A stretch of DNA of 13,158 nt from Pseudobacteriovorax sp. Its GTDB lineage: Bacteria; Bdellovibrionota_B; Oligoflexia; Oligoflexales; Oligoflexaceae. The notes below the pieces were generated by a model. That model was not told the origin of the DNA, did no database searches, and saw only the letters and a list, made by a program, of their open reading frames with translations. The position numbers and the translations under genes are program-made. The DNA lies in contig JBNKNM010000157.1 in assembly GCA_050293845.1 (NCBI GenBank), positions 1-13,158 of the forward strand. Reading direction: 5' to 3'. Positions 1 through 13,158 of the stretch are shown here, in pieces. Position 1 is the first letter of the stretch, and the number at the start of each line of letters is the position of its first letter.

Positions 1-1367
1 TCTCTTTTGGCTAAATCACCACTTTTATACCAACCTTCAGGAGTAAAACATTTTTCGTAGCGTTCCTGCTGCCCCAGATACCCACGAAACATGGATGGCC
101 AAGGTGTTTTAAGGCAAAGCTCACCTTCTTCGCCCATGGGAGCTTCTCGATAGCCATTATCAGTTTGTTGCAGAATCGCGGCTTTGATACCTGGAAGGGG
201 TTTGCCCATAGCGCCAGGTTTGATATCCATGGATGCATAATTCGCTACCATAATACCACCGGTCTCTGTCTGCCACCAATTATCATGAATTGGAAGCTGA
301 AAGGCTTGTAAGCCCCATTTTATAGCCTCTGGATTCAAAGGCTCCCCAACGCTGGCGATGAACCTGAGTGAGCTGGTATCAAATTTTCGAACAACCTCTT
401 CACCAATTTTCATCATCATTCTCACAGCCGTAGGGGCTGTATACCAAACACTTACTTTTTGTTCTTGCAAAATACGATACCAGCGTTCAGCATCAAATTC
501 TCCTTCGTCTATAATCATAGTCACACCATGGGTTAGGGGGGAAATAATTCCGTAAGAGGTACCAGTCACCCACCCAGGATCTGCCGTGCACCAGTAGACA
601 TCATTTTCATGCAAGTCCAGAGCATACTTCCCTGTAATATGATGGGACAGTACCGCACCATGTACATGCATGGCTCCCTTTGGCTTACCGGTTGTACCAC
701 TGGTAAAGTGTAGCAATGCAGGAGTTTCTGGAGCAATAGGTTCCATTTCATAATTGCTATCAGCAACAGACATCATCCCATTATAGGAAACAATGCCGGG
801 AATGTCTGAGAATTCGGAATCCAAATCTCCAGTTAAAATGATATACTTCAAGTCACTTAATTGGTGACGCATCTTTGCAATTTTTCGCTTGTATAAATGG
901 GGGGTCGTCATTAAAACCTTGCATGTACCTAAATCCATGCGGGCTTTAATCGGTTCGGGGCCAAAGGCAGAAAATAGGGGAGAAAAGACGCAACCATGCT
1001 TAAGTGCGGCCAGCACTCCTATATACAGCTCTGGAACCCGGGGCATGAGAGCATAAAAGCCATCACCCTTAGTAATCCCTAAGCTGTTTAAGGCGTTGGC
1101 AAACTGATTGGTTTGTTCGAACAGCTGACCATAAGTAATATCCTCGTTATGACCAGTCTTAGCACACCATCTTATGGCTGTTTTGTTTTTTCTTTTAAAC
1201 TTCTCTACCTGCGCATCGACTGCAAAGTAGCCGATATTAGCATTACCCTCCTGAATTTTTTCCATTTCACTACGAGCAATTTCCCATGAAAAACCAGCAT
1301 ACGCTTTTTCATAGTCAGGCATATTAGACCCTTGAATTTGCTTATCTGATTTTTGAATTACACTCAT
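1..1367 (-). CDS. acsA: Acetate--CoA ligase (acetyl-CoA synthetase, AMP-forming); 3' end runs off the left edge
   Basis: Manual translation from ATG at 1367 stays open to the window edge: MSVIQKSDKQIQGSNMPDYEKAYAGFSWE...PLFSAFGPEPIKARM...LLHFTSGTTGKPKGAMHVH (AMP-binding motif)...YWCTADPGWVTGTSYGIISPL...SVGEPLNPEA...IHDNWWQTETGG...WPSMFRGYLG...WYKSGDLAKR. A GGGG run lies just upstream as a possible RBS. Missing from the ORF track because no stop lies inside the window. Confidence 0.95.
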   Translation of the reverse strand, partial: MSVIQKSDKQIQGSNMPDYEKAYAGFSWEIARSEMEKIQEGNANIGYFAVDAQVEKFKRKNKTAIRWCAKTGHNEDITYGQLFEQTNQFANALNSLGITKGDGFYALMPRVPELYIGVLAALKHGCVFSPLFSAFGPEPIKARMDLGTCKVLMTTPHLYKRKIAKMRHQLSDLKYIILTGDLDSEFSDIPGIVSYNGMMSVADSNYEMEPIAPETPALLHFTSGTTGKPKGAMHVHGAVLSHHITGKYALDLHENDVYWCTADPGWVTGTSYGIISPLTHGVTMIIDEGEFDAERWYRILQEQKVSVWYTAPTAVRMMMKIGEEVVRKFDTSSLRFIASVGEPLNPEAIKWGLQAFQLPIHDNWWQTETGGIMVANYASMDIKPGAMGKPLPGIKAAILQQTDNGYREAPMGEEGELCLKTPWPSMFRGYLGQQERYEKCFTPEGWYKSGDLAKR

Positions 1368-1409
1368 AATATCTGCCCCAGTATTTAACAAGATTTACAA
1401 TTTAACCAA

Positions 1410-1425
1410 AGCAATACACATGCCA
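1410..1425 (-). promoter_or_regulatory. Sigma54 (-24/-12) promoter of acsA
   Basis: Minus strand reads TGGCATGTGTATTGCT, matching TGGCAC-N5-TTGCW with exact GG-N10-GC spacing. The implied TSS (~1399) is about 32 nt before the ATG. Confidence 0.8.
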
Positions 1426-1448
1426 CTAGAATACCTTGTTTTATCTAG

Positions 1449-1461
1449 TAATAAACTGATA
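1449..1461 (-). promoter_or_regulatory. Putative IHF site
   Basis: Minus strand TATCAGTTTATTA matches WATCAR-N4-TTR and lies between the sigma54 site and the candidate activator sites, the usual position. Confidence 0.5.
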
Positions 1462-1474
1462 ATTTCATACAAAC

Positions 1475-1510
1475 TGTGCAGACTCACGCAGAAAAGTGTC
1501 ATATAGCAGA
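1475..1510. promoter_or_regulatory. Tandem candidate enhancer (UAS) sites for a sigma54 activator
   Basis: TGTGCagactcACGCA (1475-1490) and AGTGTcatataGCAGA (1495-1510): two imperfect 16-bp palindromes with a 20-bp period. They align with 5957-5992 upstream of ppsA. Confidence 0.5.
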
Positions 1511-1528
1511 ATAGCAATTAAGCTGAAT

Positions 1529-3094
1529 TCATTCATGGGCTAAAGATGTCAAAACCAATGAAAGCTGTTCACTAAGGGATTTTGTTGTGTCTATTTCAAT
1601 ATGGGGAAGTTCAGAAAAATCAAAATTGTAGGCTTGCCATTGCTGATGGTATAGATCTGCACGGGCTTCCGAGCCATATTGCTCATCCTGGGGACGTTGT
1701 TGAATTCTTTGGATAGCGATGTCATCAGGACATTTACAAAAGATAAATACAAACATGGCGTGAAAGGACTGTGCCAGCGCTTGCCACTGTTGACGGTGAA
1801 GTTTACTTGAAAAAGTTCCATCTACTACGACTGACTCGCCTTTGCTTAGGAGAGCTTCTCCTTGACCAACGAGACTCTGGTAAACCTCCTCACGACTTGC
1901 TGCTGAATATTTGCCCTGGTCAAACTCTTGGTCCGTCGGTAGCTTGGAAAATATCTGTTTCCTCACTAGATCGGTATGGATATCAGTGATGAAAAGCTCT
2001 CGGGCGAGGGCCGCCGCTAAAGTGGATTTTCCTGACCCCATAAGTCCACCGACGACTATGACTGTAGGACTTTGAATTTTTTGGCTATAATTATAGGCCA
2101 TTTCCATATGTTTGGCCAAATCCTGTTGGATTTGCACATTACTTTGGGATAATTGTGATTGTCTGATAGCAGCCACCTTTGCTCTTACGGAGGCGCGATA
2201 GCTTTTGAAAAAGCAAACCAATTCATTTGTAAATGGGTCCTCCATGCTCTCCCGGTAAATATTGAGAATGGTTTCGCCGATGTCAGCACGTCCCATAAAT
2301 TCGCACTCTTCAGCGAAAAAAGCTAACTCATCGACGATATCTAGAGAGCGATAATCCCGATTAAATTCGATACAATCGAAGATCTGTGGAGTCTCTTCAA
2401 AACAGATGTGTTCTGGTCGTAAATCACCATGACCATCAACGACAAAACCTCTATGAAATCGTTCCTGCAACAAGTCTTGATTTTGATAGAGAAACAGCAT
2501 CTGACTACTATGGATTTGTCTGACAATAGAGTTCTCAGAAATATACTGGGATAAGGATTGACCGTTATCGAATATATGTTGCTTCAATTGCAACAAGTAC
2601 TGCTGACCATCCCCTTCGATTTTATCTGTCGTCCTATAGAATGCGATTAGCTTTTCAGCTAAAGCCTGCATGTGGGATGACGATATATTACCTTTTTGCA
2701 TGAGATGGTCAAGAAACAAATTTTCATCTAGACGGCGCATTTTTACGGCATACTCAATCACAATTCCGGATTTAAAATTAAGGCTACCCTGTTCGTCCCT
2801 GAAAATGGGAGTCACTGCGATATAAACCTTATCGGCAAGCCTGCGATTCAAACTCAGTTCAGCATCACATGCTGTTTTACGTTGTTCTAGGCTGCCATAG
2901 TCGAGAAAATCGAATGTAACACGCTTCTTTATTTTATATGCAAAACGATCGGTCAGGAATACATCCGAGATATGAGTCGATATATGAGTGACTTGACTTG
3001 AGTCATCTTGGTAGGAATCTACCTGGGACAAGAAATCTAACACGTCTTGATAATCGGCAGAATATTTTGTTGGTACCCCATCGTCATTTTTCAT
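1529..3094 (-). CDS. Aminoglycoside-phosphotransferase-like kinase fused to a P-loop (AAA_33/gluconate-kinase-like) domain; COG2187+COG0645, Rv2004c-like
   Basis: N-domain motifs THISDVFLT, AYKIKK, ELSLNRRLA, VDGHGDLRPEHI and IFDCIEFN. C-domain has Walker A GLMGSGKST, TDLVRK and VVVDGTF. The longest ORF starts at 3121, but the sigma54 site at 3132-3148 puts the TSS near 3122, so the in-frame ATG at 3094 (GGATGG upstream) is preferred. Confidence 0.9.
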   Translation of the reverse strand: MKNDDGVPTKYSADYQDVLDFLSQVDSYQDDSSQVTHISTHISDVFLTDRFAYKIKKRVTFDFLDYGSLEQRKTACDAELSLNRRLADKVYIAVTPIFRDEQGSLNFKSGIVIEYAVKMRRLDENLFLDHLMQKGNISSSHMQALAEKLIAFYRTTDKIEGDGQQYLLQLKQHIFDNGQSLSQYISENSIVRQIHSSQMLFLYQNQDLLQERFHRGFVVDGHGDLRPEHICFEETPQIFDCIEFNRDYRSLDIVDELAFFAEECEFMGRADIGETILNIYRESMEDPFTNELVCFFKSYRASVRAKVAAIRQSQLSQSNVQIQQDLAKHMEMAYNYSQKIQSPTVIVVGGLMGSGKSTLAAALARELFITDIHTDLVRKQIFSKLPTDQEFDQGKYSAASREEVYQSLVGQGEALLSKGESVVVDGTFSSKLHRQQWQALAQSFHAMFVFIFCKCPDDIAIQRIQQRPQDEQYGSEARADLYHQQWQAYNFDFSELPHIEIDTTKSLSEQLSLVLTSLAHE

Positions 3095-3131
3095 AAGCCA
3101 TCCAGAACAATTCCCGCGCATTTCAATCCGA

Positions 3132-3148
3132 TGGCACTAATCATGCCA
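3132..3148 (-). promoter_or_regulatory. Sigma54-type promoter for the kinase gene (palindromic, readable on both strands)
   Basis: Minus strand TGGCATGATTAGTGCC and plus strand TGGCACTAATCATGCC both have GG-N10-GC spacing. Confidence 0.6.
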
Positions 3149-3178
3149 CCGGAAATTATACATAGCAATACTCAATCT

Positions 3179-3344
3179 CATATCCGGAATCCGAAAAAGT
3201 CATCGCTTATTGCGTTATGCCATCTTTACGAAATTCTCACGCCTTGGTACGCTGCGATTTAGTAAAGCTGTCATGCCTTGCACCTGATATTTTTTCGAAT
3301 CCCCTTAGGATCATTGTTATCCTTATGAATTTCTCCGATCAGGG
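3179..3344. repeat. Dispersed palindromic element, copy 1 (RPE-like/MITE-like long hairpin)
   Basis: Core 3182-3308 aligns by hand to 11658-11785 at 116/129 columns (10 substitutions, 3 gap positions). Nested inverted repeats: CGAAAAA/TTTTTCG, ATGCCATCTTTAC/GTAAAGCTGTCAT, AAATT/GATTT. The repeat is certain; its class is inferred. Confidence 0.9.
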
Positions 3345-3371
3345 TCATATTTATTCCTGATCCAGTCTTTC

Positions 3372-5780
3372 TCATTTCTTTTCGACCTCCTTAATACTCA
3401 TTGTAGTTTTAACAACGGTATCGGGATTTAGGGAAATGCTATGGATGCCCTGCTCAACTAAAAAAGTGGCAAATTCTGGATAATCACTGGGAGCCTGCCC
3501 ACAAATTCCGATTTTTGAATTGGTGGATCGTGCCGTTTTAATAACTTGACTGATAGTCCGCTTAACCGCTTCATTTCTCTCATCAAATATTTCTGATAGC
3601 AAAGCGGAATCACGATCTACTCCTAAGGTCAGCTGGGTTAAGTCATTGGAGCCGATGGAAAAGCCATCGAAAATTTCCGCAAATTCCTTAGCCAAAATTA
3701 CATTGCTAGGAATCTCACACATAACATAAACCTCTAGCCCGTTTTTACCACGCTCCAAACTATTTGCAGACATGACTTTGAGTACTTTTTGCCCCTCTTC
3801 TAATGTACGACAGAAGGGAATCATCACTTTAATATTAGTGAGTCCCATTTCCTCGCGACATTTTTTAATTGCTTGGCATTCTAAACCGAAGGCATCCCGG
3901 TACCTTTCGTTATAATACCGTGAAGCCCCTCTAAAGCCGATCATAGGATTATCTTCTTCAGGTTCAAACTGCTTGCCTCCCAAAAGATTAGCATATTCAT
4001 TGGTCTTGAAATCACTCATCCTGACAATGACATCCTTAGGATAAAAAGCAGCCCCTAGGGTGCTGATTCCCTGTGCCAATGTTTCTACAAAATAATCTGG
4101 CTTGTGGGGAAATCCGGCTGTCATTTCTTTGATTTGTGTCTTGGCTGCCTCATCCTTTAACTTGTCATAATGAATCAATGCCATGGGGTGGATTTTCACA
4201 TAGTGGTTAATAATAAACTCCATGCGAGCCAGGCCAACACCATCATTGGGAATCATGGATAAACGAAAAGCTTCATCAGGGTTCGCTAAATTCATCATGA
4301 TTTGAGTACGGGGTCGCTCTGTTAGGGATTTTATATCCACTTTTTCTTCTTCATATTTCAATAAGCCTTTATAAATAAACCCAACATCGCCTTCTGCACA
4401 GGAAACGGTTACCTTGTCACCATCTTTGAGAACCTGGGTTCCCACTTCAGTACCGACAATCGCAGGCAGCCCGAGTTCCCGACTAACTATAGCTGCATGG
4501 CAAGTACGGCCACCACGATTGGTAACAATGGCCGCAGCTTTTTTCATCATCGGTTCCCAGTCAGGATCGGTTTTGTCAGTAACGAGCACTTCACCAACTT
4601 CTAATTGGGCTAAATTAGCAACATCTTTAATAACGCGCACCTTGCCCTGGCCGATTTTTTCCCCAACACTGCGCCCCGTGACTAGAACAGGGCCTTTTTG
4701 CTTGATATGGAAAAAACTGGGTTCAAATTTGCTTTTCCGCGATTGAACTGTTTCGGGACGCGCTTGTAAAATAAACAACTCTCCTGTTTCTCCATCTTTT
4801 CCCCACTCCATATCCATGGGAGTATATTTTCCATTCAATGCTGAGTAATGCTCTTCGATGGTACATGCCCATTTTGCTAGCTGGAGGATTTCTTCATTGT
4901 TGATGGCAAATTTTTGCCGTTCGGAGGGAGCTACAGGTACATTTTTCACCATTTTACTGCCACCGATATCGTAAATAAGTTTAAACTCTTTTGAACCAAC
5001 GCGTTTTTGTAAAATCGGAGATTTGCCTTCCAAGAGTGTGGGCTTAAACACATAAAATTCATCTGGATTAACAGAACCTTGTACCACATTTTCTCCAAGA
5101 CCATAAGACGCGTTAATAAGGACGACATCCTTAAATCCTGTCTCCGTATCTATGGAAAACATAACTCCAGATGCGGCCAAGTCTGAACGCACCATAAGCT
5201 GGACACAAATGGACAGCGCTACATCAAAATGATCGAAGGATTTATGCTCACGATAAGAAATAGCCCGATCTGTAAACAAACTGGCAAAGCACTGCTTACA
5301 AGTTGCTAACAGCATTTTATCAGTACGAACGTTAAGATAGGTTTCCTGCTGGCCGGCAAAACTAGCATCCGGTAAATCTTCTGCTGTAGCACTACTTCTT
5401 ATCGCTACACTCGTTGCCGGATGATCGCCAGACAGCTCCTGATAGGCAGCGATAATTTCTTCAGATAACACACTTGGCATTTCCGCATTTAAAATAAGGT
5501 GACGAATTTGGCTACCAGCCTTTTGTAGTGATGGGGGATTGCTCAAATCGGAATCATTAATAATGTGTCTTATATTTTCTTCAAGGTGATTTTCCTTCAG
5601 ATAGAGCCAGTAGGCGGCGGCTGTAAGACCAAAACCGTTGGGAACCTGTACTCCCTTGTCTGTAAGGTTTTGGTACATTTCCCCTAAAGAAGCTGTCTTA
5701 CCACCAACCAGAGGAACATCTTTAATATTTATTTCTTTAAACCAACGGATAAATTCATAGTTTGATGTTTTGGCACTCAT
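3372..5780 (-). CDS. ppsA: Phosphoenolpyruvate synthase (pyruvate, water dikinase)
   Basis: VGGKTASLGEM, AIRSSATAEDLPDASFAGQQETYLN, ILQARPETV, phospho-His motif GGRTCHAAIVSRELG, VRMSDFKTNEY, GFSIGSNDLTQL and GICGQAPSD. 802 aa with a GGAGG RBS upstream. Confidence 0.98.
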   Translation of the reverse strand: MSAKTSNYEFIRWFKEINIKDVPLVGGKTASLGEMYQNLTDKGVQVPNGFGLTAAAYWLYLKENHLEENIRHIINDSDLSNPPSLQKAGSQIRHLILNAEMPSVLSEEIIAAYQELSGDHPATSVAIRSSATAEDLPDASFAGQQETYLNVRTDKMLLATCKQCFASLFTDRAISYREHKSFDHFDVALSICVQLMVRSDLAASGVMFSIDTETGFKDVVLINASYGLGENVVQGSVNPDEFYVFKPTLLEGKSPILQKRVGSKEFKLIYDIGGSKMVKNVPVAPSERQKFAINNEEILQLAKWACTIEEHYSALNGKYTPMDMEWGKDGETGELFILQARPETVQSRKSKFEPSFFHIKQKGPVLVTGRSVGEKIGQGKVRVIKDVANLAQLEVGEVLVTDKTDPDWEPMMKKAAAIVTNRGGRTCHAAIVSRELGLPAIVGTEVGTQVLKDGDKVTVSCAEGDVGFIYKGLLKYEEEKVDIKSLTERPRTQIMMNLANPDEAFRLSMIPNDGVGLARMEFIINHYVKIHPMALIHYDKLKDEAAKTQIKEMTAGFPHKPDYFVETLAQGISTLGAAFYPKDVIVRMSDFKTNEYANLLGGKQFEPEEDNPMIGFRGASRYYNERYRDAFGLECQAIKKCREEMGLTNIKVMIPFCRTLEEGQKVLKVMSANSLERGKNGLEVYVMCEIPSNVILAKEFAEIFDGFSIGSNDLTQLTLGVDRDSALLSEIFDERNEAVKRTISQVIKTARSTNSKIGICGQAPSDYPEFATFLVEQGIHSISLNPDTVVKTTMSIKEVEKK

Positions 5781-5825
5781 TGATGTTCCTCCAAAAATTA
5801 TGACTTGTCCCCATTATTTATACAG

Positions 5826-5841
5826 AGCAAAGAGGATGCCA
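5826..5841 (-). promoter_or_regulatory. Sigma54 (-24/-12) promoter of ppsA
   Basis: Minus strand TGGCATCCTCTTTGCT with exact GG-N10-GC and TTGC. The implied TSS (~5815) is about 35 nt before the ATG, similar to acsA. Confidence 0.8.
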
Positions 5842-5956
5842 CAAACCCTGAAAGCCCGAAAAGTTAGATCATAATTTTTAAGCTCTTAGATTAATTTGTT
5901 TAAAAGGAATGTGTCACATTATTCTTGAGCATTTTTTGAGAAATACAGAAAGTCAC

Positions 5957-5992
5957 TGTGCAATTTAACTCATGACTGAGTTATATAAATCA
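5957..5992. promoter_or_regulatory. Tandem candidate enhancer (UAS) sites in the divergent ppsA/ATPase intergenic region
   Basis: TGTGCaatttaACTCA (5957-5972) and TGAGTtatataAATCA (5977-5992), 20-bp period. Same layout as 1475-1510, including flanking ACTGTGCA, ATATA and TAGCAA. Confidence 0.55.
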
Positions 5993-6071
5993 ATTAGCAA
6001 GGTGTATAAGGTTTTTTACGGATTTGCTAGGTTTATTTCCTAGAAACCAAGCTATACTACCCTTCGGAATT

Positions 6072-6087
6072 TGGCATGAGGATGGTT
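6072..6087 (+). promoter_or_regulatory. Possible degenerate sigma54 promoter for the ATPase-antiporter operon
   Basis: TGGCATGAGGATGGTT has the same TGGCAT -24 box as the other three sites, but GT instead of GC at -12. Confidence 0.3.
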
Positions 6088-6148
6088 GAAAAATATGAAG
6101 CGTAAGGTATGGCAAACTTTCTAAGCTAAAGGTACAAAAGAGGTAGCC

Positions 6149-8890
6149 GTGAACCAAAATCAGGCAGTAGCAGATGATCAAATGAGTACAGTACACGATA
6201 AAAGTATTACAGATATTTGTAACAGTCTTACCACCAATCAGCACCAAGGACTGGCTGATCATGATGCCACGCAACGGCTTCAGCAGCATGGACCCAACCA
6301 GCTCTATGAAGCCCCTGCGGAACCTTTAATCATGATACTGCTGCGACAATTTAAGTCCATTGTCGTTCTCGTCCTAGTCATCGCAGCTATCTTATCAGGT
6401 GTCATCGGAGAATGGTTTGAGACCTGGGCCATCTTATCAATTGTTATCATGAATGGATTCCTAGGCTTTTTTCAGGAGTCAAAAGCTGAAAAAGCTTTAG
6501 CTACCTTAAAAAAACTATCCGCACCTCAAGCGAGAGTCGTAAGAGCTGGCCTTGAGCAGAGTATTCCTGCACGGGACCTTGTCATAGGTGACCTTATCTT
6601 AGTCGCTGCCGGAGATTTTATTCCTGCCGATGCCCGCCTAGTAGCTTGCTTTAGCTTTCGCACCCAAGAAGCTTCCCTGACCGGAGAATCGGAGCCTGTG
6701 AGCAAAAATGCTGCCGATACTTTAGCCACCAAAACCAACCTTGCAGAGCGCAGCAATATGATTTTTGCCGGTACCACCGCACTTTCTGGTCAGGCTTCTG
6801 CCATCGTGACAGCTACGGGGATGCAGTCAGAACTTGGTAAAATTGCAAAACTTCTAAAGCAAGAGCATAGTGAGCCCACTCCTTTGCAGCGACGACTCGC
6901 CGAACTGGGACGCTTACTGATGGTCCTTTGCTTGGTTATCGTCGCTATAGTTGCAGGTCTTCAATGGCTGCGGGGCGGTTCCTTTCATGAAATTTTTATC
7001 TTTGCCGTTAGTTTAGCTGTCGCCGCGGTTCCTGAAGGACTACCGGCAGTTGTCACTATTTCGTTAGCTTTTGGCCTTACACGCATGGCCAAAAGGAATG
7101 CCCTTATCCGCCGCCTCCCTAGTGTGGAAACCTTAGGTTCAGTGACGGTCATTTGCTCCGACAAAACCGGCACCCTGACTAGAAATGAGATGACTGTGCG
7201 CAATATCGTGGCTGGCGATACGATGTATAACATTAGTGGGAGCGGTTATAAACCAGTAGGCACTTTTACAGAAGCAGAGACCAAACAAGTCGTGGAACCC
7301 GCCCAGATTCCGGATTTAAAGCAAGTTCTGACCATAGGATTATACTGCAATCATGCCAATTTGAAAGAAACAGAACAGGGTTGGCAGGTCTTGGGTGATC
7401 CCACCGAAGGAGCACTCATAGTACTAGCAAAGAAGGCTTCTCTAGAGACCCATCATAGCGAGTATTCCGTTATTTATGAAATCCCCTTTGATGCAGATCG
7501 CAAGATGATGTCAGTTATTGTCAAAAACAACCAAGACCAAACATTCCAATTTGTAAAGGGAGCTCCTGAAGTACTTCTCAACAAGTGTAGCAAAATACAG
7601 ATCGATGAAAACGTCATCTCATGGGATCAAGGGCAATGGCAGCAAACCCTGGAAAAAGGTCAAAACATGGCCCAAGATGCTATGCGCGTCTTGGCCCTGG
7701 CCTTTAAAAAAGTGACTCCCCATCCCAGCAACCACTACCCCGAAGAAGAGCTGATTTTTGCAGGCCTGGTGGGAATGATCGACCCCCCCCGGATGGAGGT
7801 TAAAGATGCGGTTACTAAATGTAAAAGGGCAGGCATTACTCCTGTCATGATAACCGGTGATCACCCTGCCACAGGTCAGGCTATTGCCCAGGAGCTAGGT
7901 ATTAGCCATGCCGGTAATAAAGTTGTGACTGGACATGAACTGGATACTTGGGACGAAGACACCTTATACGATGCCGTGGATAAAGTCTCAGTCTATGCCC
8001 GCGTTACACCCGAGCATAAATTGCGTGTCGTTAAAGCCTGGAAAAAACGGGATCAAATTGTAGCCATGACCGGAGATGGAGTTAATGATGCTCCAGCCGT
8101 AAAAGCTGCTGATATCGGTATCGCCATGGGAATTACGGGCACTGACGTGACAAAGGAAGCTTCCGCCATGGTTCTTACCGATGATAATTTCACCTCCATT
8201 GTGAATGCCGTGGAGGAAGGGCGTGGTATTTTCGCTAATATCCAAAATATAATTCAATTTTTACTTGCTGGTAACACCGGGGAAATCCTCCTCGTACTGA
8301 TAGCTGCCCTTGCTGGATGGCCTACTCCGTTGATTGCCATGCAAATCCTGTGGATTAATCTTGTTACCGACGGCTTACCGGCTTTGGCGTTAGCCACGGA
8401 ATTTCCTGAAAAGGGCATCATGAGCGACCCACCACGGCCTGTCCATGAACCTATTTTTACCTGGCATCGCGGTCTGCGAATTCTCACACATGGGGCTTTG
8501 TTAGCTTCGGTTTCACTGCTAGGATATTGGTGGACCCTATTCCACGACAAAGAATCAGCAGGGAACGTCACCCAAGCTCAGGCTGTAGCCTTTTGTATCT
8601 GTGCCTTTGGACAGTTAGCATACTCATTCGCCTGTCGGAGTAGACGTTTTACCCTGCCAGAAATTGGCTTCTTTTCTAATAAACCTTTATTATTAGCGGT
8701 TTTGACTTCAGTACTGCTCCAACTGGCGGCGATATTTCTTCCAGGTTTTCAACAGTTTTTCTTCAGTGAAATACCCAACTTGAATATGGCAAATGCGGAG
8801 TTCATTGCGATCCTTTCCCTGATTCCCGTCACCTTTATAGAATTGCTTAAACTGATCACTCTTCGTTTGCAAAAAAGGGGAATTTTTTGA
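6149..8890 (+). CDS. Cation-transporting P-type ATPase, P2A (SERCA/CtpF-like Ca2+ or Na+ pump)
   Basis: TGES, PEGL, phosphorylation motif DKTGTLT, KGAPE, DPPR, MITGDH and [10 protein letters not shown]5 reads GNTGE and M6 reads [19 protein letters not shown] start with an AGAGG RBS. Confidence 0.96.
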
Positions 8891-9885
8891 TTACATCACT
8901 TTTAGAATTTGTATTGTCCGCTTCAGTAATCATCACCGCGGGTATTTTCATAACCAAATCTGCCGATCGGATTGCAAATATAACCGGTTTCGGCGGGCTA
9001 TTGGTGGGGAGTATATTCTTAGCAGCTGCAACATCGTTGCCAGAACTCATGGTCAATATCAGCGCTGTCAGTCAAAACAATCCCGATCTAGCTATCGGTA
9101 ATGTTTTAGGTAGCAATTTATTTAATCTCTTGATACTAGCTATATGTGACTTGTTATATCGCTCTCATTCACGAATGTTTACCCATACTGCAGTCACACA
9201 TGCCCTTTCAGCTACACAAAGCACAGCTCTTGTAGCTTTGGGAGGGCTTGGAATTTTATTAGCGCCCCGCTTGACGGAGTTTGCTGTTGGGCCGATCGGA
9301 CTCTGCTCCTTAGCTATTCTGGGGGCCTATCTACTGGGATTGAGGCTCGTCGTTCACAATCAACGCGTTGATTCACCCCGCAAACAAAACAGTAAAAGCC
9401 ATCCTCGCCACCGCTATGAACTAGGAAAGTCTTTGTTAGCATATCTCAGCTCCGCTGCAATTATATTGCTTGCTGCACCTTTTGTTTCTAAATCGGCCAC
9501 AACCCTTGCTGAACAAACGGGTTTAGGTAATACCTTTATAGGCACAACATTGCTAGCACTTTGCACCTCCCTACCAGAGCTGGTAGCGAGTCTTTCTGCT
9601 GTGAAACTAGGAGCTTATGATCTTGCCTTAGGAAATATTTTTGGAAGCAACGCCTTTAATATGTTGCTCATTGTTCCCTTAGACTTCATCTCCACAGGTC
9701 CTCTGCTAGCTTTGGTTTCACCAACACACCTGATCACCTGTTTGGCCACTATAGTTATCACTGCCGTTGCCGTAATGGGACAACTCTATCAGGTTGAGGA
9801 AAGAAAGTTTCTGGTAGAACCCGATGCAGCTCTGGTGATTATCTTAGTTTTCGGTGCTTTATCAACAGTATATTTTCTGCGCTAA
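8887..9885 (+). CDS. Sodium:calcium antiporter (CaCA family, YrbG-like)
   Basis: Two alpha repeats, ATSLPEL...GNVLGSNLFN and CTSLPEL...GNIFGSNAFN, with about 10 hydrophobic segments. The TTG start overlaps the ATPase TGA (TTGA), with an AAGGGG RBS upstream. Confidence 0.92.
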   Translation: MITSLLEFVLSASVIITAGIFITKSADRIANITGFGGLLVGSIFLAAATSLPELMVNISAVSQNNPDLAIGNVLGSNLFNLLILAICDLLYRSHSRMFTHTAVTHALSATQSTALVALGGLGILLAPRLTEFAVGPIGLCSLAILGAYLLGLRLVVHNQRVDSPRKQNSKSHPRHRYELGKSLLAYLSSAAIILLAAPFVSKSATTLAEQTGLGNTFIGTTLLALCTSLPELVASLSAVKLGAYDLALGNIFGSNAFNMLLIVPLDFISTGPLLALVSPTHLITCLATIVITAVAVMGQLYQVEERKFLVEPDAALVIILVFGALSTVYFLR

Positions 9886-9915
9886 AATTTTGATAAAATT
9901 TATCAGTATTTTAGC
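9881..9915. terminator. AT-rich hairpin between convergent genes, possible bidirectional terminator
   Basis: Outer stem GCTAAAAT/ATTTTAGC and inner stem TGATAA/TTATCA. The stem is weak and there is no clear U-tract. Confidence 0.3.
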
Positions 9916-9937
9916 GGTTACTGTCAGCTGAGTTCAA

Positions 9938-10777
9938 TTAAGGCCAATAGGCAAGAATATCTTGATGACCAACATGCAAACGACTTTTTCCTTGGTCTAT
10001 AGCCTTTAAGTGAAACTGGACCCATTCTTCCCACTCGCCTACCTCCTTTGGTCCGAGCAATTCTCTGGTGGCACAAATGATAAAATCAAAATTTGATTTT
10101 AAGAAAGAACTGTCTTCCTTTATATCCCAAGAACTGTCTGCTGTTTTCACTAAGAATCCTCGTTGACTGAGGGTATTGCTGATTTCTCTGACAGTGTTTG
10201 GCCCCATAGCTCGCTTCCCATTCTGATCACGCTGCATATGCTGATGAAACAATGACAAATATTTTTGATTTAAGGGATGGATTGGCTGGATAGTCAAATC
10301 TTCGTTGATATGAATGGTAAAGTACAGAATTACATTATTACAGGGGCGCGATCCTAGCAAATCGAGAAAAGTTAAAAAGGTTGCGAGGGGGATGATATCA
10401 AACACTGCATTTGCCAAAAAAACTCGCCTCTCTGTTTCTTTAAAGACGTTGAGATCTTTATCAGTAAAGTCAGCAATAATTTTATGAACAGATCTGAGTT
10501 TTGCTTGATTTGTTTGCTTGACAAGTTCTATTGTTTTCTCTGCATGATTCATAAGAGACTTATCTCTCTCAATAAGATGCCACACTTGTTGGCCATCAAT
10601 CTTTGGGGAAAGATATTTGAGATTTGCTCCTGAACCGCTGCCTAAATCTATGATGTTGATAGTTTCAAGTTCAGCCAAGGATGCTAAGAATTCCTTTTCA
10701 AGATCCAGATTCCGACTCCTGGAGTCATAGTCAAACCTTTGGTTTAACCATTGATTTTCAGCTGTAACAAAATCCAT
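9938..10777 (-). CDS. Class I SAM-dependent methyltransferase
   Basis: Motif I IIDLGSGSGAN and acidic motif II WHLIERD. Family-typical segments WLNQRFDYDSRSRN, ANAVFDI, FHQHMQRD..AMGP, SSWDI and C-terminal VGHQDILA. Confidence 0.85.
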   Translation of the reverse strand: MDFVTAENQWLNQRFDYDSRSRNLDLEKEFLASLAELETINIIDLGSGSGANLKYLSPKIDGQQVWHLIERDKSLMNHAEKTIELVKQTNQAKLRSVHKIIADFTDKDLNVFKETERRVFLANAVFDIIPLATFLTFLDLLGSRPCNNVILYFTIHINEDLTIQPIHPLNQKYLSLFHQHMQRDQNGKRAMGPNTVREISNTLSQRGFLVKTADSSWDIKEDSSFLKSNFDFIICATRELLGPKEVGEWEEWVQFHLKAIDQGKSRLHVGHQDILAYWP

Positions 10778-10847
10778 TACATCAACCTAGATCGTGAATG
10801 TTCATTGATGTTGCTAGAAACAGATAGTTCATAGCTAGAGCCATGTA

Positions 10848-10876
10848 ATTTTATAAGAAAAAGTGTTCTTGGTCAA
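10848..10876 (-). promoter_or_regulatory. Sigma70-type promoter for the methyltransferase
   Basis: Minus strand TTGACC-N17-TAAAAT, with the -10 box about 70 nt upstream of the ATG at 10777. Confidence 0.55.
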
Positions 10877-10963
10877 ATAAAAAGCCATGAATCATTATTG
10901 TTTTAAAAAAATTTTTAAAAAGATAATGGTGAACAAAACAAGCTAAAAATCTCGCTGTCAAAT

Positions 10964-11644
10964 TTATCTGATAAAAGGAAGTTTCCATCTACTAATGGAT
11001 CTTACAAAGGACAGTGAAATAAGCAAAGCGGCAAATATAGAAATGACAGTCTTTATCCCTAGGGAAATACTAGGAGAAAGGTTGAAAATCAGCGCACCAA
11101 TGGTAACAACACAAATAGTTTTCCCAAACCATGGGTTGCTTGAGGAGCTTTTAACCTCTATGACTTGCCAGTAGTGGGCTAGAACATAGAGGGGACGCCA
11201 GGCTGCTATCACATAAACCCAGAGGGGAAGCCCGACGATCTGTACTGCGACCATACTCAGAAGCACGGTGATGACTCCATCCGCCTCTTCATCAAGTATA
11301 GCTCCATATTTGGTGGGATCATGCAAGCGAGCCAGGTAACCATCAACACCATCCAAAATTAAGGCCAAGATAATAAAGAACTGCCTGAAAAAAGTTAACA
11401 TGCCGTCACTCAAATATAGATAACAGACAACGAAAACGATTAACAGCCGAGATATGGTCACAGCATCGGCTACAGTTAGTTTCTGCTTTAAACTCAGTGG
11501 TAAGGAAATAAATGCTAAGAAGATTGCGATGAGACCATAAATAGAAACGGTGCTAGAATCTGAAAGACACCACAAAAGGACCCCGGCAAGGTTTACTGCT
11601 GCTAGCCATTCACTCCAATATTTTATAAACATGAATATTCTCAA
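10964..11644 (-). CDS. CDP-alcohol phosphatidyltransferase family membrane protein
   Basis: Signature DG-x2-AR-x7-G-x3-D-x3-D (DGYLARLHDPTKYGAILDEEAD), preceded by ADAVTISR, with multiple TM segments. Start is TTG at 11644 or ATG at 11632. Confidence 0.88.
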   Translation of the reverse strand: MRIFMFIKYWSEWLAAVNLAGVLLWCLSDSSTVSIYGLIAIFLAFISLPLSLKQKLTVADAVTISRLLIVFVVCYLYLSDGMLTFFRQFFIILALILDGVDGYLARLHDPTKYGAILDEEADGVITVLLSMVAVQIVGLPLWVYVIAAWRPLYVLAHYWQVIEVKSSSSNPWFGKTICVVTIGALIFNLSPSISLGIKTVISIFAALLISLSFVRSISRWKLPFIR

Positions 11645-11654
11645 ATTCTGAAAG

Positions 11655-11817
11655 TAGATCCGGAATCCGAAAAATTCATCGCTTGCTGCGTTATGCCAAC
11701 TTTACGAAATCCTCACGCACCTTGGTGCGCTGCGGTTTAGTAAAGCTGTCATGCCTTGCACCCCATGTTTTTTCGAATCCCTTAGAATAGTTACTAATAA
11801 ATTTTTCCGATCTAGGG
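11655..11817. repeat. Dispersed palindromic element, copy 2 (better preserved)
   Basis: Same orientation as copy 1. Perfect apical inverted repeat CGCACC-TT-GGTGCG. The ends TAGATCCGGAA (11655) and TTCCGATCTA (to 11814) form an imperfect terminal inverted repeat bounded by TA. Confidence 0.9.
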
Positions 11818-12219
11818 CAGATTCCATTATAGTAGGAGCGATCCTTAAGGAACTTATCCCATTCTAGCTGATCAGAGACAGCTCTCAAAGAAAAATTAAA
11901 TGCGCCCCCCTTGGATTTTCAAACCTTCGCAAGCTCCCTTACTATTGGTAGCGTAGTATCTATAATTCTAGCCGAATCGGATTTCGAACCATCTCATTCT
12001 GGTTGTTAGAAACATTACTTTTATGTTAATTAGGGTGATCAATAGGGAAAGTTTGGTATAATTTGCTCAAATATCTGCTAAGTTAAAGGAAGTTGCCAGG
12101 TGCTTTCTGGGGATGGATTTGACTGCCAAGAACTCGGCATAAATGTACCGTAATATCGCATAATAATAGTTGGCCGGTACACGTATCGCTATCATTAAGC
12201 TTATGACATTAGGGGGCGA

Positions 12220-12426
12220 TTGAAAAAGTTTAAAGGTTCCGAGTTTCATCAATTGATAAAATTCGCTCATCCTGAAAAATATTTACTATTGACGGGTATG
12301 CTCTTTTTAGGGATAGGATCTCTTGTCGCTCTGCTTTTTTCCCAAGCCATTTATATTACCCTCGATGAAGGTATGGAATCCCATAGTTTAGCCCCTGTCG
12401 ATCAAATGGGCCACTTAATGACTTAG
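12220..12426 (+). pseudogene. Truncated N-terminus of an ABC exporter (ABCB/MsbA-like transmembrane domain)
   Basis: LIKFAHPEKYLLLTGMLFLGIGSLVALLFSQAIYITLDEG resembles the elbow helix plus TM1 of ABC exporters. It has an AGGGGG RBS before the TTG, stops after 68 aa and has no visible continuation. Recognised by eye only. Confidence 0.55.
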
Positions 12427-12474
12427 GTATATTAATCAATTTTTGAGCTAAATGTTTATTTTTAATCAAATTCT

Positions 12475-12895
12475 ATGAACAATGAAATTATAAATATTGA
12501 GGATTATCGGGAAGCTTTACGTTATTTTACAAAGTTGAAAAAAACTTCGTTCCGGACGCTCTCTCTGCAAACACAATTACACACTTCCTATATCTCCCGT
12601 GTTATGGCTGGAAAATGTGAATTTTCGGAAGAACAGATTCACAAAATAGGTCAGGTCTGTCCCTTAGCGATTGGCAGATGGAGAATTTCTACTGTTAGGT
12701 AGCTTGGGGCGCAATTTCAATAGACACTTTCGGAAGACTATTTTGCAAAGTATCCGAAAGATACGTAAAGAAAAGTCGAAGCTTTTAGAAAAACTTAATG
12801 GCGTTTGCAGCGCTGATCACGCGTTATATTATCAAGACGCTCTAACCGCTAAAGTGCATATGCACTTAACAATACCTGTATACCGGCGGAATTTA
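12475..12895 (+). pseudogene. Frameshifted, truncated TIGR02147/DUF4423-like HTH protein
   Basis: DYREAL...SFRTLSLQTQLHTSYISRVMAGKCEFSEEQIHKIG (HTH), then LSDWQME in a second frame, then FLLLGSL...IRKIRKEKSKLLEKL...[24 protein letters not shown] in the third. This implies two frameshifts near 12660-12685. Similarity stops near 12895. Confidence 0.6.
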
Positions 12896-12920
12896 CGTGT
12901 AGTGCAGCCTGTTTTTCCGC

Positions 12921-13158
12921 CACTACTGCCTCTAACTCAAGATCATGAGTAGGGTAGTGCTCTTCATGCCGCCTTAGTTGTCGTGAGGAGTATGACATCA
13001 CTCGGCCTTCTTGCACTAAGACACCCCCAAACCAATGCCAGAAGCATCACAATAGACATCAAAAGTCTTGGTGATGTCAGGCTGAGCTAGCACAGGCGAT
13101 GTGGTCAACAACTTCTTCAAATTCTCGAAGTCTTCGTCACAAGCGTCACTTCAGACAT
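12921..13158 (-). mobile_element. Degenerate fragment of a plant-type Ty3/gypsy LTR retrotransposon pol (RT connection / RNase H), running off the right edge
   Basis: Minus-strand translation [43 protein letters not shown], a 1-nt frameshift at 13023-13028, then [34 protein letters not shown]. This matches the Ty3/gypsy RNase H pattern (F..LK..LT..PVL..PD...F.VYCDAS..GLG.VLMQ...[20 protein letters not shown]). Confidence 0.9.

What the first reader, a model, noticed from the sequence alone, without database searches (positions are those of the whole stretch)
12921..13158. Plant-type Ty3/gypsy retrotransposon RNase H fragment fused to bacterial DNA
Seen: the last ~240 bp on the minus strand translate to ...[69 protein letters not shown]. 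There is a TGA at 13151-13153 where Trp is expected and one base missing in the G-run at 13023-13028, so the ORF track misses it. Known: VYCDAS, SRQL and YPTHDLEL are hallmarks of the RNase H domain of plant Ty3/gypsy elements (Del/Tekay-type chromoviruses), and bacteria have no LTR retrotransposons. From memory the AQPDI/RRHEEHY wording is grass-like. Inference: homology ends abruptly after ELEAVV, about 25 bp from where the bacterial pseudogene ends, at the window edge. A chimeric read or mis-assembly with plant DNA is the likeliest cause. A real insertion into this decayed zone would be a rare eukaryote-to-bacterium transfer.
Basis: partly seen in the sequence, partly recalled or inferred. 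Interest (0 to 1): 0.85.

Follow-up and report, generated by a model that had tools for sequence, protein, structure and literature searches.

The report
Plant retrotransposon scrap mis-joined to bacterial contig
The last 238 bases of this bacterial contig are a broken piece of a very abundant grass-type jumping gene from plant DNA in the same sample, almost certainly stuck onto the contig end during assembly rather than carried by the bacterium.

Summary
On the minus strand, 12921-13158 encodes about 79 codons of a Ty3/gypsy RT-RNase H region. Pfam RT_RNaseH_2 gives E 6.4e-11. There is an in-frame TGA at 13151-13153 and a one-base gap in the run 13024-13028.

The best-scoring named relatives are grass (Paspalum) polyproteins, at 74-79% identity over 42 residues.

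The fragment is not a bacterial feature:
- The window is a whole contig of a 741-contig draft, and the fragment sits at its end.
- In four public runs the tail is covered by 1144-2877 short contigs at very high summed depth. The bacterial flank appears in only one run.
- The exact copy, frameshift included, occurs in runs that lack the flank.
- Related plant copies read on in frame past 12921, while the window switches to unrelated sequence.
- The one contig that carries the flank follows the window for only 21 bases past the breakpoint.
- The same bin holds at least five separate small contigs with retrotransposon domains.
- None of the 30 relatives searched has the tail.

Verdict: plant contamination joined to a contig end. 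The most likely route is a chance shared 21-base word, or else a chimeric molecule. The chance of a real plant-to-bacterium transfer is about 0.04. Trim 12921-13158.

The parts
12921..13158 (-). A truncated, decayed fragment (about 79 codons) of a high-copy plant Ty3/gypsy pol gene, covering the end of RT and the first half of RNase H. It is contaminant DNA, not bacterial.
   Evidence: Translations. Pfam RT_RNaseH_2 and RT_RNaseH. 88.7% and 85.4% DNA identity to the short contaminant contigs L042 and L028 over the full 238 bases. 74-79% identity to Paspalum polyproteins. Covered by 1144-2877 short contigs per run in 4 of 4 runs laid.
13151..13153 (-). In-frame TGA stop inside the pol reading frame.
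   Evidence: L028 reads Trp at this place and L042 shares the TGA.
13024..13028 (-). Homopolymer run that holds a one-base gap relative to related copies, which shifts the frame.
   Evidence: Frames, alignment. Contigs from runs without the bacterial flank match across it with 0 gaps (records 20 and 29). The shift therefore belongs to the plant copy and is not a sequencing error of this assembly.
12920..12921 (.). Breakpoint between bacterial sequence (left) and plant repeat (right).
   Evidence: Alignment. Loose ends at 12921 in all 4 runs, in 34-69 contigs each, whose consensus continues the RNase H frame. No alignment of the 29 related loci passes left of 12920.
12921..12941 (.). A 21-base word shared by the plant repeat and by the only public contig that carries the bacterial flank. 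It is the candidate overlap through which the false join was made.
   Evidence: record 1 (X1): 1288 letters, depth 7.6, matches 12420-12941 with 0 differences, then 12 letters not aligned. The exact-copy plant contigs begin at 12941-12953 (records 13, 20, 29).
12466..12702 (+). Open frame in the bacterial flank (78 codons, stop to stop). It has only a weak, sub-threshold likeness to the N-terminus of the TIGR02147 family.
   Evidence: E 0.019, 14.4 bits against a cut-off of 50. No Pfam hit. No homologue among longer proteins. No close paralogue in G000.
12668..12952 (+). Open frame that runs from bacterial sequence across the junction into the plant tail. If annotated it would be a false chimeric protein.
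   Evidence: No family, no homologue of similar length, no paralogue.
11658..11823 (.). Dispersed bacterial repeat, which shows that this flank belongs to the bacterium.
   Evidence: ten further copies at 78-86% identity in G000, and copies in the relatives G001 and G002.
12208..12410 (.). Second bacterial repeat in the flank.
   Evidence: 84% identity to G000:C264:2437-2640.
10964..11644 (-). The last confidently bacterial gene before the junction, a CDP-alcohol phosphatidyltransferase.
   Evidence: Pfam PF01066, E 1.7e-15.

Best explanation
The 238-base tail is not part of the bacterial genome. It is a piece of one decayed copy of a very high-copy Ty3/gypsy retrotransposon from a plant, most likely a grass, whose DNA was abundant in the sequenced sample. 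It was joined to the end of a bacterial contig by an artefact.

Shown: the plant origin, the high copy number, the presence of the identical copy in runs that lack the bacterial flank, the truncation of the element at 12920/12921, other plant retroelement contigs in the same bin, and the lack of any contig that bridges the junction by 31 letters.

Inferred mechanism, favoured at about 0.5. The bacterial contig came to a dead end a few bases beyond 12941. Its last bases happened to contain a 21-base word (12921-12941) that also occurs in the abundant plant repeat. A de Bruijn assembler working at a small word size clipped the short true end as a tip and walked on into the plant repeat until that path branched.

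The alternative artefact, at about 0.4, is a chimeric DNA molecule or read made during library preparation.

The confidence given is for 'artefact, not biology' as a whole.
For: (1) The window is the whole contig C157 of a 741-contig draft, and the tail is at its end.

(2): in 4 of 4 runs laid, the tail is covered by 1144-2877 short contigs. Summed word depth reaches 150,588 in X1 and 947,685 in X13, a run labelled as a single organism. The flank 12420-12919 is covered in 1 of 4 runs (X1), by one contig of depth 7.6.

(3) The exact copy occurs in runs without the flank. Record 20 (X2, 12950-13049) and record 29 (X5, 12953-13054) have 0 other letters and 0 gaps. Record 13 (X13, 12941-13046) has 1 other letter. 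These stretches include the window's rare letters at 12969 and 13016 and the frame break.

(4) Native copies continue in frame past 12921, both in the loose-end consensus of all 4 runs and in L042, L028 and L039.

(5) The X1 flank contig follows the window only to 12941, 21 letters past the breakpoint, and then has 12 unaligned letters. By the tool's 31-letter rule it does not bridge the junction.

(6) G000 also contains small separate contigs with retrotransposon domains above Pfam cut-offs: C497 and C637 (RVP_2), C717 (Integrase_H2C2), C646 (rve) and C581 (zf-CCHC). That is 5 of the 9 candidate contigs tested. One more was below cut-off and 3 had no hit.

(7) The tail has no second copy in G000, PF17919 is found nowhere else in G000, and the tail was not found in the 30 relatives searched.

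(8) Chance shared words are expected. Observed counts fit the uniform model (k=19: 3 observed, 3.5 expected), which gives about 3 to 2,949 shared 21-mers with 1e6 to 1e9 distinct plant words, and fewer than 0.003 at k=31.

(9) The motif scan of prokaryote genomes found 39 loci. By their titles most are tiny, low-coverage contigs, and one is another plant patch inside a bacterial scaffold (L044).

(10) There is a precedent: a human Alu concatenated onto the end of a 35-kbp archaeal contig, with a false chimeric protein (PMC6581058, passages read).
Against: The one X1 contig does cross 12920/12921 without a break and carries 21 window-identical letters of the tail. So words that span the breakpoint exist in at least one public run, which may be the source sample. 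Its end, 33 letters past the breakpoint, is also about where a 31-word graph would stop on entering a repeat. That fits a junction really present in the reads, whether from a chimeric molecule or a true insertion.

No 'empty-site' contig showing the true bacterial continuation was found: 0 hits in both metagenome scans and no protein homologues.

The assembler and word sizes used for G000 are unknown. That common assemblers start at 21 is recalled, not shown. Raw reads were not available, only Logan contigs, so depth and read pairing at the junction could not be examined.
Confidence: 0.92

Rival explanations
1. Read-level chimera. This is a sub-variant of the artefact reading and is nested within the 0.92 above. 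A bacterial fragment and a fragment of the super-abundant plant repeat were ligated or template-switched during library preparation. The resulting molecule(s) gave junction words that extended a contig which otherwise ended here.
For: The X1 contig passes 12920/12921 without a branch and stops 33 letters later, about one 31-letter word after entering the repeat. The plant repeat is far more abundant than the bacterium (summed word depth in the tens of thousands in X1, against 7.6), so it is the likeliest partner for a chimera. There is no microhomology at the breakpoint.
Against: The 12 letters after 12941 in the X1 contig do not align to the window. The molecule that Logan followed is therefore not the one the window's tail follows. 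A chimera seen at least twice with no competing true continuation needs a coverage gap at the same spot.
Confidence: 0.38
2. Real integration. A short piece of plant retrotransposon DNA was taken up and inserted into this bacterium's chromosome, for example by natural transformation with degraded plant DNA. The contig merely breaks inside it because its words are shared with the plant's own copies.
For: Junction words are present in one public contig of bacterial depth (record 1). An assembler would indeed break inside such an insert. The flank is a gene-poor zone rich in repeats.
Against: Only one junction exists, and no other G000 contig carries a plant-to-bacterium transition. The tail beyond 12941 is not what the flank-bearing contig reads. 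The tail is letter-identical to plant copies in runs that lack the flank, so there is no divergence since any transfer. It was not found in the 30 relatives searched. The bin demonstrably contains plant contaminant contigs. The prior for such transfers is very low (established knowledge).
Confidence: 0.04
3. A bacterial retroelement, such as a group II intron, retron or DGR reverse transcriptase, misread as plant-type.
For: G000 has 13 RVT_1 matches elsewhere.
Against: The tail matches the RT_RNaseH_2 and RT_RNaseH profiles. PF17919 rang in 0 of 14 control prokaryote genomes. It is 74-79% identical to grass polyproteins. It is covered at enormous depth in a run labelled as a single organism that shows no bacterial flank. 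The one other RT examined (C427) reads like a group-II-intron RT, which is a recalled likeness, and is unrelated.
Confidence: 0.005

Closest known systems
Plant Ty3/gypsy (Metaviridae) LTR-retrotransposon pol, chromovirus-like. The best-scoring named proteins are Paspalum (Poaceae) polyproteins P0001-P0003.
   Same: The RT_RNaseH_2/RT_RNaseH region is 74-79% identical over 42 residues. The relatives carry RVP_2, RVT_1, RNase H, Integrase_H2C2 and rve, and P0001 also has a chromodomain. The nearest atlas clusters are 100% Eukaryota, most often Streptophyta.
   Different: The window holds only about 79 codons. They are broken by a stop and a frame shift and cut off at 12921. There are no LTRs, and no protease, RT core or integrase. 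The clade (Del/Tekay) was not tested.
High-copy eukaryotic repeat contamination of prokaryote assemblies (Breitwieser et al. 2019, PMC6581058; abstract and passages read).
   Same: The contaminant comes from a high-copy repeat. The other contaminant pieces are small contigs. That paper describes an Alu concatenated onto the end of a 35-kbp archaeal contig with a false chimeric protein, and here the frame 12668-12952 spans the join in the same way.
   Different: The donor here is a plant from the environmental sample, not human DNA from the laboratory.
Interspecies chimeric contigs in metagenome-assembled genomes (bioRxiv 10.64898/2026.10.15.759294; abstract start in the search listing, passages).
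   Same: Foreign sequence is joined within a contig of a bin that marker-based scores call clean. G000 scores 96.39% complete and 1.2% contaminated.
   Different: That work concerns joins between bacterial species. According to the passages read, its benchmarks leave out events within 1 kb of contig ends, which is where this join lies.
L044: a plant RNase H patch inside a high-GC bacterial scaffold from another MAG (genome contigs record found).
   Same: It is the same part of a gypsy RNase H. The patch is about 120 bases, 97% identical over 106 bases to the separate contaminant contig L031, and it ends within about 8 bases of the window's breakpoint in the element.
   Different: It is flanked by bacterial sequence on both sides and interrupts an SRP54 (ffh) gene. 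It comes from a different element subfamily, 74% identical to the window's tail.

Membership tests
Ty3/gypsy LTR retrotransposon pol | RT-connection/RNase H domain of the retrotransposon type | tested here: met
   RT_RNaseH_2 at 42.6 bits (cut-off 29.8) and RT_RNaseH at 25.3 bits (cut-off 24.8).
Ty3/gypsy LTR retrotransposon pol | Domain order protease, RT, RNase H, integrase | tested here: inconclusive
   The window holds only part of the RNase H region. The order is seen in full-length elements of the same motif class, L020 and L040: RVP_2, RVT_1, RT_RNaseH, Integrase_H2C2, and in L020 also rve. The domain lists of P0001-P0003 agree.
Ty3/gypsy LTR retrotransposon pol | Long terminal repeats, primer-binding site, target-site duplication | not testable with these tools
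   The fragment is 238 bases long and ends at the contig end.
Chromovirus (Del/Tekay clade) | Chromodomain at the integrase C-terminus, and clade placement in a reference tree | tested here: inconclusive
   One of the three best-scoring named relatives (P0001) lists PF00385. The window lacks that region. No GyDB or REXdb reference was available, so the clade was not placed.
Intact (potentially active) element | Uninterrupted pol frame | tested here: not met
   A TGA at 13151-13153, a one-base gap in 13024-13028, and truncation at 12921.
Genuine horizontally acquired insert | Junction bridged by independent reads or contigs with at least 31 letters on each side | tested here: not met
   The only flank-bearing contig has 21 aligned letters on the plant side. 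Raw reads were not available.
Genuine horizontally acquired insert | Second junction back into host DNA | tested here: not met
   No other plant-like end or patch was found on a large G000 contig.
Genuine horizontally acquired insert | Presence in related genomes or in independent samples of the host | tested here: not met
   Not found in the 30 relatives searched. Both metagenome scans gave 0 hits.
Contaminant or chimeric join | The identical sequence occurs where the host is not detected | tested here: met
   Records 20 (X2) and 29 (X5) match with 0 differences, and record 13 (X13) with 1. These runs show no cover of 12420-12919. Absence of cover in Logan contigs is weak evidence on its own.
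Contaminant or chimeric join | Other sequence from the same foreign source in the same bin | tested here: met
   5 of the 9 candidate small contigs carry retrotransposon domains above Pfam cut-offs.

The most novel reading that the evidence does not exclude
A bacterium living among grass roots or litter really took up a short fragment of the plant's most abundant retrotransposon and inserted it into a gene-poor, repeat-rich stretch of its chromosome. The 21 to 33 letters that the independent X1 contig carries past the breakpoint would then be the true start of that insert. The L044 patch inside an ffh gene in another MAG would be a second example of short-fragment uptake of plant DNA in nature.
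Probability: 0.04. Interest if true: 0.8.

Novelty: not a real feature. Interest (0 to 1): 0.07.

Why it matters
As biology it does not matter, because the bacterium almost certainly does not carry this DNA. It matters for data hygiene:
- The bin passes marker-based quality checks (1.2% contamination). Yet it holds a false bacterium-plant join and at least five plant retrotransposon contigs.
- An annotator would call a false chimeric protein across 12668-12952.
- A screen for horizontal transfer would flag a spectacular but false plant-to-bacterium event.

Positions 12921-13158 should be trimmed. The small plant contigs C497, C637, C717, C646 and C581 should be removed, and probably C687, C617, C705 and C679 as well.

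Tried and rejected
- **Empty-site search.** Exact 47-base and 24-base words from the bacterial flank found 0 records in metagenome contigs. No independent assembly of the site was obtained.
- **Exact tail word.** An exact 36-base word from the tail found 0 records in genome contigs. The degenerate motif scan then found 39.
- **Flank homologues.** None of similar length for 12668-12920, and none among longer proteins for 12466-12702. No close paralogues in G000. The only family hints are sub-threshold: TIGR02147 at E 0.019 and MobA at E 0.013. The idea that homologues would reveal the true continuation past 12920 therefore led nowhere.
- **k-mer screen of contig ends.** A 5-mer plant-versus-bacterium score over 914 contig ends ranked the C157 tail first, at 0.205 against an interior maximum of 0.192 over 6070 windows. 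This is partly circular, because relatives of the tail were in the plant training set. The next two ends, the C332 start and the C175 end, are simple tandem or low-complexity repeats and not plant DNA.
- **RVT_1 hits with stops.** Only C427 was read, and it looks like a group-II-intron RT, which is a recalled likeness. C293 and C111 were fetched but not examined.
- **Earlier findings.** The scan's earlier findings held nothing for this genome or this sequence.
- **Runs with no cover of 12420-12919.** X2, X5 and X13 show none. Logan contigs can show presence but not absence.
- **Same-breakpoint coincidence.** I considered whether L044 and the window share a breakpoint. L044's plant patch extends 8 bases further, and the motif used for the scan sits at the very end of the window's homology. 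The coincidence is weak, and I rejected it as evidence for a site-specific process.

Full report
**What is in the sequence.** The window is the whole of contig C157 (13,158 bases) of a draft genome. The draft has 6,677,828 bases in 741 contigs and is scored 96.39% complete and 1.2% contaminated. Its GC content is 41.2%.

Positions 3-11644 carry ordinary bacterial genes by Pfam:
- an AMP-binding enzyme
- an AAA_33 kinase-like protein
- a PEP-synthase-type enzyme
- a P-type ATPase
- a Na/Ca exchanger
- a CDP-alcohol phosphatidyltransferase

The nearest atlas clusters to the PEP synthase have Pseudomonadota as their commonest phylum. This is only a lead.

From 11645 to 12920 there is no confident gene. 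That stretch holds two dispersed bacterial repeats. The one at 11658-11823 has ten further copies in G000 and copies in two relatives. The one at 12208-12410 matches C264 at 84%. It also holds two orphan open frames.

**Check of the observation.** One frame reads a stop (TGA, 13151-13153) followed by [42 protein letters not shown]. The frame one base off reads [36 protein letters not shown] and ends at 12921.

Both pieces pass Pfam's cut-offs. RT_RNaseH_2 scores 42.6 bits at E 6.4e-11, and RT_RNaseH scores 25.3 bits at E 1.8e-5. PF17919 occurs nowhere else in G000 and rang in 0 of 14 control prokaryote genomes.

I aligned the tail with two related copies that turned up as short contigs in other assemblies: L042 at 88.7% and L028 at 85.4% identity over all 238 bases. 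The window has a one-base gap inside the run 13024-13028. It has the TGA where L028 reads Trp, and L042 shares the TGA. It then leaves the family abruptly between 12921 and 12920. The relatives read on in frame, with L028 giving ...LELAAVVMALRTWRHYL....

**Whose DNA it is.** The 42-residue piece found 2098 proteins at E <= 0.001 among 2138 candidates. The three best-scoring, and the only ones listed with an organism name, are polyproteins of 1610-1824 residues from Paspalum, a grass in the Poaceae. They are 74-79% identical and carry RVP_2, RVT_1, RNase H, Integrase_H2C2 and rve, and one also has a chromodomain. Many unnamed metagenome fragments reach 83-90% identity.

Atlas clusters nearest to the L028 relative are 100% Eukaryota, most often Streptophyta. 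The Del/Tekay clade could not be tested.

**The run data.** A search of public runs with 12860-13158 (29 sampled words) found no run holding all the words. The best holds 0.66. The holders are an unlabelled study, runs labelled salt marsh metagenome, and runs of one coded single organism.

Logan contigs of four runs from three studies were laid on 12420-13158. Four points follow.

1. The tail is covered in all four runs by 1144-2877 short contigs. Summed word depth reaches 150,588 in X1 and 947,685 in X13, the single-organism run. This is the signature of a very high-copy repeat of a eukaryote.
2. The bacterial flank 12420-12919 is covered only in X1, by one contig of depth 7.6.
3. Contigs with exactly the window's letters occur in runs without the flank. 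They include its rare letters at 12969 and 13016 and the frame break. Record 20 (X2) and record 29 (X5) show 0 differences and 0 gaps. Record 13 (X13) shows 1 difference. The particular decayed copy therefore exists as plant DNA, and the frame shift is the plant copy's own.
4. In each of the four runs, 34-69 contigs that align from 12921 carry loose letters before it. Their consensus, read on the minus strand, continues the RNase H frame.

**The junction.** The single X1 contig (record 1, 1288 letters) matches 12420-12941 with no difference and then has 12 letters that do not align.

I infer that these 12 letters lie to the right of 12941 from the way other minus-strand records relate to the listed loose ends. 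For example, record 9 has 16 spare letters and there is a loose end 'before 12921'.

It does show that words spanning 12920/12921 exist in one run, which may be the source sample. It also shows that the molecule it follows is not the window's tail beyond 12941. The exact-copy plant contigs begin at 12941-12953. The window thus looks like two sequences overlapped on the 21 bases 12921-12941.

**Mechanism.** Chance words shared between this genome and plant DNA behave as the uniform model predicts. I compared 73.8 kb of plant-like loci with 6.48 Mb of the genome. At k=17 there were 90 shared positions against 56 expected, and at k=19 there were 3 against 3.5.

Scaled up, 1e6 to 1e9 distinct plant words give about 3 to 2,949 shared 21-mers, and fewer than 0.003 shared 31-mers. 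I restricted this by hand to the last 42 bases or so of the 1482 contig ends, about 1% of the genome. That still leaves roughly 0.03 to 28 expected events.

The scenario I favour is inferred. A dead-ending bacterial contig had this 21-mer within its last 33 bases. At a small word size the 12-base true end was clipped as a tip. The walk then continued into the abundant plant path until it branched, 238 bases on. That common assemblers start at word size 21 is recalled, and the assembler used for G000 is unknown.

The other artefact is a chimeric library molecule. It fits the fact that the X1 contig stops about one 31-letter word after entering the repeat. It fits less well the 12 unaligned letters.

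**Independent signs of plant DNA in the bin.** I used 463 open frames from the 39 motif loci as a makeshift library. tblastn hit 15 G000 contigs:
- C157 itself.
- Nine contigs of 514-828 bases.
- Five large contigs. Four of them are hit by frames of L044, whose long frames are largely bacterial. One, C133, is hit at 32% identity by a frame of L039 and was not examined.

Of the nine small contigs, five carry retrotransposon domains above Pfam cut-offs:

| Contig | Domain | Score |
|---|---|---|
| C497 | RVP_2 | 164 bits |
| C637 | RVP_2 | 56.8 bits |
| C717 | Integrase_H2C2 | 62.7 bits |
| C646 | rve | 40.5 bits |
| C581 | zf-CCHC | 25.2 bits |

One more (C679) is below cut-off, and three have no hit. 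No other large contig shows a plant-like end. The tail has no second copy or end overlap in G000, and none of the 30 relatives searched has it.

**How common this is.** A degenerate pattern for the window's motif YPTHDLEL[E/A]AVV found 39 loci in the one-genome-per-species prokaryote collection. Of these, 29 align to the tail at DNA level.

By their titles most are contigs of a few hundred bases with coverage near 1. Several come from one series of MAGs. Three come from isolate assemblies of three species that share a near-identical 1277-residue polyprotein frame.

One, L044, is a patch of about 120 bases of gypsy RNase H inside a 70-80% GC bacterial scaffold, between SRP54 domains and an amidohydrolase. 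It is 97% identical over 106 bases to a separate contaminant contig, L031.

The literature has the same class of error. High-copy human repeats contaminate 2250 prokaryote genomes, mostly as small contigs, and one Alu is concatenated onto the end of a 35-kbp archaeal contig with a false chimeric protein (PMC6581058, abstract and passages). A preprint reports interspecies chimeric contigs in 444 of 640 near-complete MEGAHIT MAGs (10.64898/2026.10.15.759294, abstract start in the listing, passages).

**What remains open.** No raw reads were available, only Logan contigs, and no independent assembly of the site was found. The two artefact routes cannot be told apart, and a real insertion cannot be excluded formally.

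Against a real insertion stand:
- the single junction
- the zero divergence from plant copies
- the divergence of the flank-bearing contig from the window after 21 bases
- the demonstrated contamination of the bin
- the very low prior

**Verdict.** This is an assembly or contamination artefact, at about 0.92. A real plant-to-bacterium transfer has a probability of about 0.04. It is not a real feature of the bacterial genome, and its interest is low except as a cleaning note.

Noticed in passing
G000 contigs C497, C637, C717, C646, C581 (also C687, C617, C705, C679); loci L059-L067: Whole small contigs of 514-828 bases in the same bin carry LTR-retrotransposon domains (RVP_2, Integrase_H2C2, rve, zf-CCHC). 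They are plant contaminants that marker-based contamination scores (1.2%) do not see. Four of the nine are supported only by tblastn or by sub-threshold hits.
   Followed up: yes
L044 about 1920-2043 (genome contigs record, Kineosporiaceae MAG scaffold, 10.7 kb): A patch of about 120 bases of plant gypsy RNase H (RT_RNaseH 38.6 bits) sits inside a 70-80% GC bacterial scaffold. It interrupts an SRP54/ffh gene and is followed by an amidohydrolase. It is 97% identical over 106 bases to the separate contaminant contig L031. It is probably another assembly chimera, this time flanked by bacterial sequence on both sides.
   Followed up: partly
L020 251-4033 (genome contigs record, 1.6-Mb contig of an 'uncultured Actinomycetota' MAG): An open 1261-residue gag-pol frame (RVP_2, RVT_1, RNase H, Integrase_H2C2, rve, SH3_Tf2-1) lies in a 38-43% GC stretch in the middle of a megabase contig. 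Either the contig is eukaryotic or chimeric, or this deserves a look of its own. The flanks beyond 2 kb were not examined.
   Followed up: partly
L040, L022, L055 (genome contigs records of three isolate assemblies of different species): All three hold a 1277-residue open gypsy polyprotein frame. In the first 70 residues printed, L040 and L022 are identical and L055 differs at 3 places. This points to a common laboratory or sample plant contaminant.
   Followed up: partly
window 11658-11823; G001:C23:124583-124912; G002:C62:27536-27882: A dispersed repeat of about 160 bases has ten further copies at 78-86% identity in G000. In two relatives it occurs in head-to-tail arrays with a spacing of about 116 bases. 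Its nature (MITE-like, REP-like or other) was not examined.
   Followed up: no
G000, 13 RVT_1 places (e.g. C425, C4, C249; C427:2462-3129): There are many reverse-transcriptase genes in this genome. The one read (C427) looks like a group-II-intron RT broken by frame shifts, which is a recalled likeness and was not profile-tested.
   Followed up: partly
G000:C332:1-340 and G000:C175:11900-12109: These contigs break inside simple repeats. One is an 18-base tandem unit that translates to SPVQ(N/S)S repeats, and the other is a GA-rich low-complexity run.
   Followed up: yes
window 12961-13077, as seen in the laid runs: Some plant copies replace or skip 64-108 bases here, for example 12968 to 13036 with 32 other letters in X5 and X13. 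This shows structural variants among copies of the element family.
   Followed up: no
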